A stretch of 64,000 nucleotides of DNA from an uncultured Gammaproteobacteria bacterium (lineage in GTDB: Bacteria > Patescibacteriota > Microgenomatia > UBA12405 > JAHJSD01), in assembly GCA_964428655.1 (NCBI GenBank), contig CAYRYE010000001.1, forward strand, positions 9,328-73,327. The letters run 5' to 3'. The position numbers and the translations under genes are program-made. Positions 995-2,459 of the stretch are shown here, one piece after another. Every line of letters begins with the position of its first letter. The first letter of the stretch is position 1. The notes under the pieces are model-generated. The model was not told the DNA's origin and ran no database searches. It saw only the letters and a program-made list of their open reading frames with translations.

Positions 995-1046
995 GGGCGA
1001 GGAAATCCTAAATTCGAATCTCCTTGTCCAAAGGACAAATTCCCTT
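995..1046. repeat. 52-nt exact repeat copy A inside 23S (GCCCTCTGGGCGAGGAAATCCTAAATTCGAATCTCCTTGTCCAAAGGACAAA), replacing a variable helix in domain IV
   Basis: Identical to 2408..2459 by direct reading. Contains a T-arm-like GGAGATTCGAATCTCC palindrome and a TTGTCCTTTGGACAA palindrome. Confidence 0.85.
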
Positions 1047-1707
1047 AACCTTCCGGCACTGGACAGGCTTCAGCCCCTATACTTCCCCTTACGGGTTTGC
1101 AGAGACCTGTGTTTTTGATAAACAGTCGCCGAACAATCTTTAGTTGCAGCCTCGAAAATTCGAGGCAGGGCATCTCCCGAAGTTACGCCCAGCTTTTTTG
1201 CCGAGTTCCTTGACCTCCCTTCTCCCGATCACCTTAGTCTACTCGACTTACCCACCTGTGTCGGTTTGCGGTACGGGTTCTATTACTTCTTTCCGCGAAG
1301 CTTTTCTTGGCACCAGAAATCAGCTGAATCGATCGAAAATTCGACCTCTTGATCAATCTCGCCTTAAAACAAAGCGACGGATTTTCCTATCGCTTCTAGC
1401 TTAATTGCTCAATGCGGCAATTTCACTACCACACTCAACTTATCCCAATGCGTCCCTCCCCAGATAATAACAAAATAATAGAAGGGCTGGAATATTAACC
1501 AGCTGTCCATCGCCTACTCCTGATTCATCAGGACTTGGCTTAGGTCCCGCCTAACCCAACGTCGACGAACGTTGCGTTGGAAACCTTGGGTTTTCGGTGA
1601 ACTGGATTCTCACCAGCTTTTGCTGTTACTTATGCCGGCATTCTCACTTCCCAACACTCCAGTTTGACTTACATCAAACCTTCACTGTCTTGGGAACGCT
1701 CCCCTAC

Positions 1708-1737
1708 CATCCCGATACGTGTAAACACTATCGGGAT
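1708..1737. repeat. 28-nt segment (RNA sense UCCCGAUAGUGUUUACACGUAUCGGGAU) shared identically between the 23S and the 16S (21278..21305)
   Basis: Plus strand here reads atcccgatacgtgtaaacactatcgggatc; its reverse complement equals 16S tcccgatagtgtttacacgtatcgggat. It can fold as an imperfect hairpin. The spurious ORFs 1597..1848 and 21226..21417 share the peptide PDTCKHYR(D/E)L for this reason. Confidence 0.85.
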
Positions 1738-2407
1738 CTCCGTCTTCGGTGGTCTGCTTTAGCCCCGGTAAATTTTCGGCGCAGTTTACCAATCCCAATA
1801 CCCATAAGGATATCGGGATCGACCAGTGAGCTATTACGCTTTCTTTAAAGGATGGCTGCTTCTAAGCCAACCTCCTGGTTGTCTTCGATAAACTACTTCC
1901 TTCCCCACTTAGCAATCTCCGACATAATGTCGGAGAGACACTTAGGGACCTTAGACGAGAGTCTGGGATCTTTCCCTTTCGCCTGACCAGCTTAGCCCGG
2001 CCAGACTGACTGCCCTTGTAGAAATCAGAGTATTCGGAGTTTGGTTGGGTATCGAGGATTACTCCCCAGTACTCATCCAGTAGCTCTACCCCTCTGATTC
2101 AATCAAGAACGCTATACCTATATATATTTCGGGGAGAACCAGCTATCTCCGGGTTCGATAGGCATATTGCCTCCAACCACAGGTCATCCGAAGGAATTGC
2201 AGCTCCTACCGGTTCGGGCCTCCTCCCCGACTTCTCGGGGATTCACCCTGCCCATGGTTAGCTCACCCGGTTTCGGGTCTCCCGCATGCGACTAAAACGC
2301 CTTATTCAGACTTGCTTTAGCTACGCCTCCTCCTGACTCATCAGGATTAAGCTTGCCGCAAACGAGAACTCGCCGGCTCATTCTTCAATAGGCACGACAT
2401 TACTTCG

Positions 2408-2459
2408 CCCTCTGGGCGAGGAAATCCTAAATTCGAATCTCCTTGTCCAAAGGACAAAG
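2408..2459. repeat. 52-nt exact repeat copy B inside 23S (domain I variable region)
   Basis: Identical to 995..1046. Confidence 0.85.

What the first reader, a model, noticed from the sequence alone, without database searches (positions are those of the whole stretch)
995..2459. Identical 52-nt tRNA-arm-like module inserted twice in different 23S rRNA domains
GCCCTCTGGGCGAGGAAATCCTAAATTCGAATCTCCTTGTCCAAAGGACAAA occurs verbatim at 995-1046 and 2408-2459 on the plus strand, so its complement is in the rRNA. It replaces variable helices in domain IV (just 5' of the H69 region) and in domain I (after the GAACCTGAAACC block). The unit contains a T-arm-like GGAGATTCGAATCTCC palindrome and a second TTGTCCTTTGGACAA palindrome. 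An exact 52-nt duplication between two unrelated expansion segments suggests a recent miniature insertion, or a shared protein or RNA docking module, rather than independent drift.
Basis: seen in the sequence. Interest (0 to 1): 0.55.

Follow-up and report, generated by a model that had tools for sequence, protein, structure and literature searches.

The report
Copied hairpin insert in 23S rRNA
The same 52-base hairpin caps two distant helices of this bacterium's large ribosomal RNA because it is the smallest member of a previously undescribed family of hairpin inserts that get copied from one rRNA helix tip to another in a small group of ultra-small (CPR) bacteria.

Summary
It lies in a minus-strand 23S rRNA gene at the tips of helix 68 and helix 25, and is present in two independent assemblies. 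It is not tRNA-like: it folds as one ~20-bp hairpin that extends each helix, and the claimed 'T-arm palindrome' does not exist. Related CPR genomes carry 100-240-nt versions at the same two sites and at six or more other helix tips, including one in 16S rRNA. All share conserved ends (X: YYGUSC-NNN-GSACRA; Y: YYGYSC-NNN-GSRYGA) around AT-rich 7-nt-repeat cores. The ends pair with each other: the variable triplets are complementary in 98.7% of cells versus 62% when shuffled. Cores resemble other sites of the same genome more than the same site in other genomes (p=4e-4), so elements are copied between sites. Profile hits with E<0.01 occur only in rRNA genes, and there are no target-site duplications. 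Best reading: an intervening-sequence-like (IVS-like) insert family spread by ectopic conversion or template switching; the window holds two collapsed copies. Whether the RNA is excised or retained could not be tested. New variant of a known kind; moderate interest.

The parts
215..3024 (-). 23S rRNA gene (2810 nt, single, unlinked from the 16S gene at 21109-22588); host of both modules
   Evidence: Rfam LSU_rRNA_bacteria, 2101 bits, full length
986..1039 (-). Element copy 1 at the tip of H68 (domain IV; 23S positions 1986-2037; after E. coli ~1852). The exact repeat is 988-1039; X to Y spans 986-1038.
   Evidence: folds as a coaxial extension of H68, -44.2 kcal/mol, z -4.8
1024..1038 (-). 5' end motif X of copy 1: UUGUCC-UUU-GGACAA
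   Evidence: nhmmer X profile E=7.9e-5
1001..1023 (-). Collapsed core of copy 1: GGAGAUUC-GAAUUUA-GGAUUUCC (9-bp inner stem, 7-nt loop). It keeps about two GRAUUUM heptads and shares 16 nt with the 3' arm of the 212-nt L028 H25 element.
986..1000 (-). 3' end motif Y of copy 1: UCGCCC-AGA-GGGCAA
   Evidence: nhmmer Y profile E=1.6e-4
2405..2458 (-). Element copy 2 at the tip of H25 (domain I; 23S positions 567-618; after E. coli ~546). The exact repeat is 2407-2458; X is at 2443-2457, the core at 2420-2442, and Y (UCGCCC-AGA-GGGCGA) at 2405-2419.
   Evidence: -40.1 kcal/mol, z -5.6 in context; nhmmer X E=3.1e-5, Y E=5.2e-5
1152..1163 (-). Shared 12-nt palindromic cap UCGAAUUUUCGA on H63 (E. coli ~1727-1738), a site that holds full elements in L031 and L024. 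Identical caps occur at 1333-1344 (E. coli ~1534-1545) and 2740-2751 (E. coli ~275-286, an element site in L004/L031/L010). These may be fully collapsed or copied caps; association is inferred.
1711..1734 (-). Shared cap family CCCGAUA...UAUCGGG on H45 (E. coli 1163-1185), an element site in L003, L024, L028 and L031. Further copies occur at 1793-1819 (after E. coli 1111), 2850-2876 (H10, E. coli 151-176) and in the 5' leader at 3032-3055. Association is inferred.

Best explanation
The 52-mer is the smallest known member of a lineage-specific family of inverted-repeat hairpin inserts. These inserts cap variable helices of 23S rRNA, and at least once 16S rRNA, in a sub-clade of Patescibacteria (CPR) near Ca. 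Shapirobacteria. A full element has three parts: a conserved 5' end X (YYGUSC-NNN-GSACRA-GGAAAUYC), an AT-rich core built of 7-nt tandem repeats on two complementary arms, and a conserved 3' end Y (GGAUUUYC-YYGYSC-NNN-GSRYGA). In the RNA, X pairs with Y to give a conserved ~24-bp basal helix with three U.G wobbles and two A.C mismatches. This helix stacks on the host helix, and the core continues it as one long hairpin. SHOWN: family membership, the structure, restriction to rRNA genes, patchy presence among relatives, and that elements at different sites of one genome are each other's closest relatives. INFERRED: (1) Elements are copied between helix tips by ectopic gene conversion or replication template-switching, using the short conserved, self-complementary ends as homology. 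(2) In the window lineage the core collapsed to ~two heptads in one copy, and that copy then overwrote the element at the other site, giving two identical 52-mers. (3) Functionally the elements behave as bacterial intervening sequences (IVS): tolerated passengers at surface helix tips whose basal duplex is a substrate for a dsRNA endonuclease (RNase III type). The long forms would then be excised and the 23S fragmented. The 52-nt form, whose longest uninterrupted helix is 11-14 bp, may be cut or may simply persist as a mini-extension.
For: Exact repeat with chance excluded, and confirmed in two further assemblies. Helix-tip placement. Single-hairpin fold, -24.9 kcal/mol, z -5.3. All 25 curated elements fold as one hairpin closed by X:Y, with core GC of 19-47%. 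Homologous ends around longer cores occur at H25 and H68 in relatives and at about six further 23S sites plus 16S h6. Covariation: the long helix is 90.8% paired and 12 of 24 pairs show double changes. The free triplets pair in 98.7% of cells versus 62.1+-4.6 shuffled, 0 of 500 shuffles reach that, and the score collapses when partners are slid. The long helix beats forced terminal hairpins by 3.5-18 kcal/mol. Intragenomic copying: normalised core similarity has a median of 0.27 (max 1.0) for same-genome/different-site pairs, 0.18 for different-genome/same-site (p=3.9e-4) and 0.16 for the rest (p=6.7e-9). The nine best pairs are all intragenomic. Examples include 108 nt at 99% in L009 and 141 nt at 88% in L003, and a 54-nt exact stretch in L028. 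L004 and L031 are 96.3% identical in the 23S core yet carry different element types at the same sites. Presence/absence at E. coli ~215-225: none, solo hairpin, or full copy. The window core shares 16 nt with the L028 3' arm, and heptad repeats occur in relatives but not in the window. Every X/Y profile hit with E<0.01 in 201,612 nt lies inside an rRNA gene. There is no target-site duplication, and the flanks are host-helix complements. The anatomy matches the published definition of IVSs (PMC4990558, PMC8708148). Short ORF-less CPR inserts at IVS sites were already suspected to be IVSs (PMC11270868).
Against: No RNA data were available, so excision versus retention is untested. H68 is not a recognised IVS site, and 52 nt is below the usual 100-200 nt. 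No RNase III gene lies in the 64-kb window; this is uninformative for the whole genome. A leader/trailer processing stem could not be shown. Each end is itself a near-perfect palindrome (X 94% and Y 98% paired as hairpins), and the two A.C mismatches of the long helix are conserved. A simple duplex model does not explain this. The copying mechanism is inferred from sequence patterns only. Element pairs are not phylogenetically independent, so the p-values are approximate. The X/Y search patterns partly impose the palindromy; they do not constrain the triplets.
Confidence: 0.6

Rival explanations
1. Retained expansion segments. The family and its copying dynamics are the same, but the hairpins stay in the mature ribosome as surface spikes, like eukaryotic or Asgard expansion segments. 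The conserved X:Y base would be a structural or protein-binding module, which is the reader's 'docking module' idea.
For: The sites coincide with classic expansion-segment positions (H25, H45, H63, the H98 region, plus my own knowledge of ES7, ES15, ES27 and ES39). The basal 24 bp are conserved in sequence as well as pairing, which suits a binding site. The 52-nt version has only 11-14 uninterrupted bp, making it a poor dsRNA-nuclease substrate. Unprocessed IVSs are tolerated in E. coli ribosomes (PMC8708148).
Against: CPR rRNAs are otherwise minimised (PMC9297842). Relatives would be adding up to ~1-1.4 kb of low-complexity, AT-rich, rapidly turning-over RNA. Cores show no conservation between genomes, which is unlike a functional structure. 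Long, near-perfect duplexes are normally cut by bacterial RNase III (general knowledge).
Confidence: 0.3
2. Non-autonomous mobile DNA (MITE, REPIN, RPE or PATE-like). The palindromic ends would be binding sites for a transposase encoded elsewhere in the genome. Only insertions at tolerated rRNA helix tips would survive.
For: The architecture is 'palindrome - spacer - inverted palindrome', exactly as in REPINs (PMC3337134). There are near-identical copies at several sites, a presence/absence polymorphism and patchy phylogenetic distribution.
Against: All hits with E<0.01 in ~200 kb lie inside rRNA genes, and there are none in the ~60 kb of non-rRNA window DNA. REPINs and RPEs are mainly extragenic and occur in tens to hundreds of copies (PMC1779305). 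There is no target-site duplication. No transposase or HUH enzyme is encoded in the window. X and Y are complementary only through G.U pairs, which is an RNA-level constraint, not a DNA-level one. There are no matches in plasmid, phage or viral collections.
Confidence: 0.1
3. Protein-spliced rRNA inserts. An endonuclease would cut at the X:Y module, and the RtcB ligase (with archease) encoded next to the 23S gene would rejoin the rRNA.
For: RtcB lies ~0.9 kb from the 23S 5' end in the window, and the S1-23S-(archease)-RtcB order is conserved in L003 and L004.
Against: The same synteny exists in L041 and L043, which have no X/Y elements. Element-bearing L024 and L036 loci show no RtcB nearby. 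By my reading of the sequences, X:Y cannot be drawn as a bulge-helix-bulge motif. RNase III-type ends are not RtcB substrates (general knowledge).
Confidence: 0.04
4. Chance similarity or an assembly artefact.
For: None beyond the general risk of repeats in metagenome assemblies. Logan contigs of this organism do break inside the 23S.
Against: 0 of 100 shuffles give a match. Two independent assemblies are identical. Relatives have homologous junctions.
Confidence: 0.01

Closest known systems
Bacterial 23S rRNA intervening sequences (IVS) of Salmonella, Yersinia, Campylobacter, Leptospira, Coxiella and alphaproteobacteria
   Same: Both replace the loop of a variable helix with an extended stem-loop. 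Both have complementary termini forming the stem, AT-rich variable interiors, a sporadic distribution among relatives, and tolerance in single-copy rRNA genes. H25 and H45 are used in both.
   Different: Here one family with common conserved ends occupies up to ~8 sites per 23S, plus 16S h6. These include sites not listed for IVSs (H68, H63, the L1-stalk stub, E. coli ~215-225 and ~270-290). Copies at different sites of one genome are near-identical, whereas classical H25 and H45 IVSs are, to my knowledge, unrelated to each other. The window form is only 52 nt. RNase III excision is untested.
Short ORF-less, non-intron 'insertion sequences' in CPR rRNA genes (Tsurumaki et al. 2024, PMC11270868)
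   Same: Same organisms and the same kind of object. [quoted passage not shown]
   Different: That survey used a >=100-bp cut-off, so it would miss the 52-mer. It did not report conserved termini, the hairpin architecture, inter-site paralogy or the H68 and 16S copies: the words hairpin, inverted repeat and palindrome are absent from the text.
Eukaryotic rRNA expansion segments and their 'molecular coevolution' through slippage (Hancock and Dover 1988; my own knowledge, not held in the library)
   Same: Both are inserts at variable helix tips built from cryptically simple repeats. Different segments of one species resemble each other more than the same segment in other species.
   Different: Those are retained in mature rRNA and share motif composition rather than long identical stretches or a conserved terminal module. 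Retention is unknown here.
REPINs, Rickettsia palindromic elements and MITEs
   Same: All share the palindrome-spacer-inverted-palindrome design that folds into a long hairpin, with multiple near-identical copies per genome (PMC1779305).
   Different: Those are extragenic or in protein-coding genes, are present in tens to hundreds of copies, and depend on a transposase. Here copies are confined to rRNA genes, lack target-site duplications and have no transposase nearby.

Membership tests
Bacterial rRNA intervening sequence (IVS) | Replaces the terminal loop of a variable rRNA helix with an extended stem-loop | tested here: met
   Rfam alignments place both copies at helix tips. The folds are coaxial with H25 and H68.
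Bacterial rRNA intervening sequence (IVS) | Complementary termini that form a stable stem | tested here: met
   X:Y is 90.8% paired with covariation. The triplets pair in 98.7% of cells. All 25 elements close through X:Y.
Bacterial rRNA intervening sequence (IVS) | Sporadic presence among related organisms | tested here: met
   Elements are present in the window, L003, L004, L031, L028, L024 and L022. They are absent in L011, L016, L019, L030, L041 and L043. State differs by site within the clade.
Bacterial rRNA intervening sequence (IVS) | Located at the recognised sites H9, H25 or H45 | tested here: inconclusive
   H25 is met in the window, and H45 is used in relatives. H68 and several other sites are not on the published list.
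Bacterial rRNA intervening sequence (IVS) | Length about 100-200 nt or more | tested here: not met
   The window copies are 52-53 nt. Relatives are 101-240 nt (PMC8708148).
Bacterial rRNA intervening sequence (IVS) | Excised by RNase III without ligation, giving fragmented 23S rRNA | not testable with these tools
   No RNA reads were available. No rnc gene lies in the 64-kb window.
rRNA expansion segment | Retained in the mature rRNA | not testable with these tools
   Needs RNA or ribosome data.
MITE, REPIN or RPE-type mobile element | Terminal inverted repeats or paired palindromes | tested here: met
MITE, REPIN or RPE-type mobile element | Copies dispersed in intergenic or coding DNA | tested here: not met
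   All nhmmer hits with E<0.01 in 201,612 nt lie inside rRNA genes.
MITE, REPIN or RPE-type mobile element | Target-site duplication | tested here: not met
   Mean adjacent direct repeat is 0.16 nt versus 0.10 in controls.
MITE, REPIN or RPE-type mobile element | Cognate transposase in the genome | tested here: inconclusive
   None among 54 window ORFs. The rest of the ~0.55-Mb genome was not visible.
   ARAGORN finds nothing. The claimed palindrome is absent. The MFE is a single hairpin. Rfam gives only noise at E>0.4.
Group I or group II intron | Match to the catalytic-core covariance models | tested here: not met
   There is no intron family at gathering threshold in the window and none on the module at E<=10.

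The most novel reading that the evidence does not exclude
These hairpins may be a self-propagating, rRNA-restricted genetic element. Its short palindromic ends would let it be templated from one helix tip into another, including de novo sites and across 23S and 16S genes, without a transposase. In sister lineages this would produce either the most fragmented bacterial rRNAs known (up to ~9 pieces of 23S) or eukaryote-like expanded bacterial ribosomes. That would make the clade a living model for how expansion segments and IVSs are born, spread, co-evolve and collapse. The conserved dual-fold ends (long helix versus two perfect hairpins, with fixed A.C mismatches) would be the functional heart of that cycle.
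Probability: 0.3. Interest if true: 0.8.

Novelty: new variant of a known kind. Interest (0 to 1): 0.6.

Why it matters
IVSs and expansion segments are usually treated as site-specific oddities of unknown origin. Here a single recognisable element family occupies many helix tips. It shows direct sequence evidence of being copied between sites in a single-copy rRNA gene, and all stages are visible among close relatives: empty site, solo hairpin, full element and collapsed 52-mer. That makes a long-standing question directly testable by comparative genomics and metatranscriptome mapping: how do rRNA insertions arise and spread? There is also a practical consequence. Identical repeats inside rRNA genes break short-read assemblies and distort rRNA-based alignments, primers and phylogenies for CPR bacteria.

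Tried and rejected
- Exact searches for the 23-nt module core in species-representative genomes, JGI metagenome contigs and viral contigs found nothing. Relatives had to be reached through RtcB synteny and a lineage-specific H25-flank pattern.
- tRNA-like reading: rejected.
- Cruciform or four-way-junction fold with two terminal triloop hairpins: thermodynamically disfavoured by 3.5-18 kcal/mol and unable to explain the triplet covariation. The palindromy of each end is nevertheless real and remains unexplained.
- My idea that X and Y refold into protective terminal hairpins after excision: not supported. The X:Y duplex (-17 to -31 kcal/mol) beats two hairpins (-5 to -15) even without the core.
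- RtcB/archease splicing: the synteny also occurs in lineages without elements.
- Bulge-helix-bulge motif: X:Y cannot be drawn as one (my reading of the sequences).
- Plasmid and phage BLAST: no hit in plasmids and only a chance 23-nt word at E=0.4 in phages.
- RNase III signature search and a Pfam scan of 54 window ORFs: nothing relevant.
- Leader/trailer processing-stem test: no better than shuffled, so inconclusive.
- The tmRNA-adjacent Y-like hairpin in L004 is only a solo triloop hairpin (E=0.33), not an element.
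Full report
**1. Observation**

The 52-mer occurs exactly twice in the 64-kb window, at 988-1039 and 2407-2458 on the + strand. There is no further copy at up to 3 mismatches and none in 100 shuffles.

Both copies lie inside a minus-strand 23S rRNA gene at 215-3024 (2101 bits). The 16S gene is unlinked, at 21109-22588.

Local Rfam alignments put copy 1 at the apex of the helix at model positions ~1883-1903, which is H68 in domain IV, just 5' of H69. Copy 2 is at the apex of the helix at model positions ~573-601, which is H25, just after GAACCUGAAACC. 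Alignment to E. coli rrlH gives insertion points after nt ~1852 and ~546.

Two independent JGI assemblies from other samples (L038, L039) carry both copies at the same spacing. They are identical to the window over 3,923 nt, so this is not an assembly artefact.

**2. Structure**

In rRNA sense the module reads UUUGUCCUUUGGACAAGGAGAUUCGAAUUUAGGAUUUCCUCGCCCAGAGGGC. It folds as one hairpin: 9 bp, a small internal loop, 9 bp and a 7-nt loop, at -24.9 kcal/mol and z = -5.3. This hairpin continues H25 and H68 coaxially.

ARAGORN finds no tRNA, and Rfam returns only generic hairpin noise.

**3. Relatives**

The module core is absent from the genome, metagenome and viral collections. Relatives were reached in two ways:
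- through the neighbouring RtcB gene, where the S1-23S-(archease)-RtcB synteny holds;
- through a lineage-specific H25-flank pattern.

The organisms are Patescibacteria, and one relative is labelled Ca. Shapirobacteria. The window's 23S core is 84-86% identical to L003, L004, L031 and L028, and 72-73% identical to L024 and L036.

At H25 and H68 these relatives carry inserts of 101-240 nt. Their ends are homologous to the ends of the 52-mer, and their interiors are AT-rich and unrelated between genomes. Other lineages have plain short hairpins at one or both sites.

**4. A family at many sites**

Pattern and profile searches show the same X...Y architecture at many positions:
- E. coli ~215-225
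- E. coli ~270-290
- H25
- H45
- H63
- H68
- the truncated L1-stalk stub (E. coli ~2126-2160)
- a 3'-domain site
- 16S helix 6, in L024

Up to about 8 copies occur per 23S. The window has only the two shortest copies.

The cores are tandem 7-nt repeats, with UUUCUAA-type units on the 5' arm pairing with GGAUUUA-type units on the 3' arm. The window module keeps about two such units and shares 16 nt with the 3' arm of the L028 H25 element. It therefore looks like a collapsed long element.

**5. Covariation**

I aligned 25 elements, keeping the ends plus 9 nt of the core on each side (A1).
- The end-to-end helix is 90.8% paired, and 12 of 24 pairs show changes on both sides.
- The two 3-nt 'loops' are the only positions that discriminate between the two models. 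They are complementary in 98.7% of cells, versus 62.1+-4.6 when shuffled; 0 of 500 shuffles reach the observed value, and the score collapses when partners are slid. The observed types are UUC/GGA, GUA/UGC, UUU/AGA, UCU/AGG, GCA/UGU, AUA/UGU, GUA/UAC and UUC/GAA.
- Two positions are systematic A.C mismatches.
- Each end is also a near-perfect palindrome, with X 94% and Y 98% paired as hairpins. This palindromy is partly imposed by my search patterns.
- Energetically the long helix wins by 3.5-18 kcal/mol. It still wins after the core is removed.

The RNA structure is therefore a long hairpin with a conserved, slightly imperfect 24-bp base. The reason for the palindromic ends is unexplained.

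**6. Copying between sites**

Normalised local-alignment scores between cores fall into three classes:

| Comparison | Median score |
|---|---|
| Same genome, different site | 0.27 (max 1.0) |
| Different genome, same site | 0.18 |
| Different genome, different site | 0.16 |

The first class exceeds the second (p=3.9e-4) and the third (p=6.7e-9). The second and third do not differ (p=0.19). The nine best pairs are all intragenomic:
- L031 H25 versus the ~215-225 site, score 1.0 (108 nt at 99% identity)
- L004 3' site versus the ~270 site, 0.97
- L028/L010 L1 stub versus the ~270 site, 0.83
- L003 H45 versus H68, 0.78 (141 nt at 88% identity)
- L024 H45 versus H68, 0.68
- L028/L010 H68 versus the ~270 site, 0.67
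- L028 H68 versus L1 stub, 0.62
- L031 H63 versus L1 stub, 0.59
- L024 H68 versus 16S h6, 0.59

L004 and L031 are 96.3% identical in the 23S core, yet they carry different end types and cores at H25, H68 and the L1 stub. The same end type (UUGUCC-GUA-GGACAA ... UCGCCC-UGC-GGGCGA) sits at H25 in L004, at H68 in L031 and at ~270 in L010.

At E. coli ~215-225 the window and L010 have nothing. L004 has a solo hairpin, and L031 has a full copy of its own H25 element.

The window's two identical collapsed copies are one more instance of this rule. An identical collapse occurring twice independently is implausible.

**7. What it is not**

It does not behave as a general transposon:
- All profile hits with E<0.01 in 201,612 nt lie inside rRNA genes, with none in the ~60 kb of non-rRNA window DNA.
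- There is no target-site duplication, and the flanks are host-helix complements.
- X and Y are complementary only through G.U pairs, which is an RNA-level constraint.
- No transposase, RNase III or IVS protein is found among 54 window ORFs.
- There are no plasmid, phage or viral matches.

RtcB adjacency is clade synteny. It also occurs in L041 and L043, which lack elements.

Internal repeats are specific to the element-bearing sub-clade. E. coli, L019, L030 and L016 show only 1-2 weak repeat families.

**8. Comparison with the known**

The anatomy matches bacterial IVSs: a helix-tip stem-loop, complementary termini, and sporadic distribution. IVSs are cut out by RNase III at H9, H25 and H45 (PMC4990558, PMC8708148).

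Tsurumaki et al. 2024 surveyed CPR rRNA inserts of >=100 bp. [quoted passage not shown] They did not describe conserved termini, hairpin architecture, inter-site paralogy, H68 or 16S copies, or sub-100-nt forms.

The within-genome resemblance of different inserts recalls the 'molecular coevolution' of eukaryotic expansion segments (my own knowledge). The palindrome-spacer-inverted-palindrome design recalls REPINs.

I file this as a new variant of the IVS kind. Its fate in RNA (excised, retained or rejoined) could not be tested here.

**9. Mechanism (inferred)**

- Short self-complementary ends at helix tips would favour hairpin formation in single-stranded DNA and template switching, or short-tract ectopic conversion, between tips 0.1-2 kb apart in the same gene.
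- Heptad slippage would grow or collapse the arms.
- Selection would tolerate only surface helix tips and would keep the basal 24-bp duplex, which is plausibly the recognition site of a dsRNA endonuclease.
- For the window this predicts either three 23S fragments of about 0.57, 1.37 and 0.77 kb, or two retained ~20-bp extensions.

Noticed in passing
window 1152-1163, 1333-1344, 2740-2751; 1711-1734, 1793-1819, 2850-2876, 3032-3055; 1511-1541, 2324-2354: Three further families of near-identical short hairpin caps are shared between different variable helices of the same 23S: UCGAAUUUUCGA x3, CCCGAUA..UAUCGGG x4 (one in the 5' leader) and CUCCUGAUGArUCAGGAG x2. Several sit at sites that hold full elements in relatives (H10, ~E. 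coli 275, H45, H63). Relatives have their own genome-specific repeated caps, for example CCCCGCAGCUGCGGGG x5 in L003. E. coli and element-free CPR relatives do not show this.
   Followed up: partly
window 3365-5362; L003 9397-11458; L004 8976-11174; L041; L043: An archaeal-type RtcB RNA ligase lies ~0.9 kb from the 23S 5' end. Archease accompanies it in L003 and L004, and a small methyltransferase in the window and L041. The S1-23S-RtcB-recF-like-L25-tmRNA-SmpB order is conserved across lineages 62-67% identical in RtcB, including lineages without the hairpin elements.
   Followed up: partly
window ~725-760 (23S, E. coli ~2100-2190): The L1-stalk rRNA (H77/H78) appears to be deleted: AUAGGUGGGAGCCUUCGGGCAUCAGUGGAAUACC replaces ~45 nt more in E. 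coli. In L004, L031 and L028 this stub carries a full hairpin element. This fits the reported loss of H78 and uL1 in Microgenomates (PMC9297842).
   Followed up: partly
window 7512-7528; L004 14659-14681: A perfect triloop hairpin sits 4-5 nt upstream of the tmRNA 5' end: UCCGCC-AAC-GGCGGA in the window and UUGCGC-UUU-GCGCAA in L004. The L004 hairpin is preceded by GGAUUUC, which resembles an element's 3' end (nhmmer E=0.33 only).
   Followed up: partly
L036/L023/L029/L025/L018 H25 (e.g. L036 ~1400-1560): A more distant lineage (72% 23S identity) has an H25 hairpin insert with different, non-palindromic ends (CUCGUUUCCACUCG...CGAGUGGAGGCGAG), while its H45 insert has X/Y-like ends. Its 23S also has a 481-nt insert after E. 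coli 1917. L024 has a 650-nt insert after E. coli 1931. L004 and L043 carry LAGLIDADG ORFs, which marks these as classical intron sites.
   Followed up: no
L009 (CAZWLF010000015.1), L011 (CAYPZT010000021.1): Two GTDB-representative MAG records titled 'uncultured Gammaproteobacteria bacterium' carry CPR-type 23S genes; L009's is essentially the same sequence as L031, a member of this clade (~86% 23S-core identity to the window). The taxon label or the binning looks wrong.
   Followed up: no
window 16587-18467, 19189-20037, 23478-24088, 36012-38354, 58929-60470: Scattered type IV secretion-like genes: a VirB4/TraG-type ATPase, a PrgI-family protein, a coupling-protein-like ATPase and at least five small T4SS-pilin paralogues.
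   Followed up: no
window 32559-34334: A 591-aa fusion protein combines a ThiI/tRNA-methyltransferase-type PP-loop domain, an NFACT-R RNA-binding domain and a formyltransferase (Fmt-like) N- and C-domain. It lies next to a three-tRNA cluster at 34349-34693.
   Followed up: no
window 42524-46536: An operon-like cluster encodes a 7TM_transglut membrane protein, an ATPgrasp_ST protein and two RimK-type ATP-grasp ligases.
   Followed up: no
L001 (Logan SRR3095939), L002: Short-read Logan contigs of the same organism end inside the 23S about 50 nt before the H25 copy. This shows how conserved rRNA blocks and these repeats fragment assemblies.
   Followed up: no
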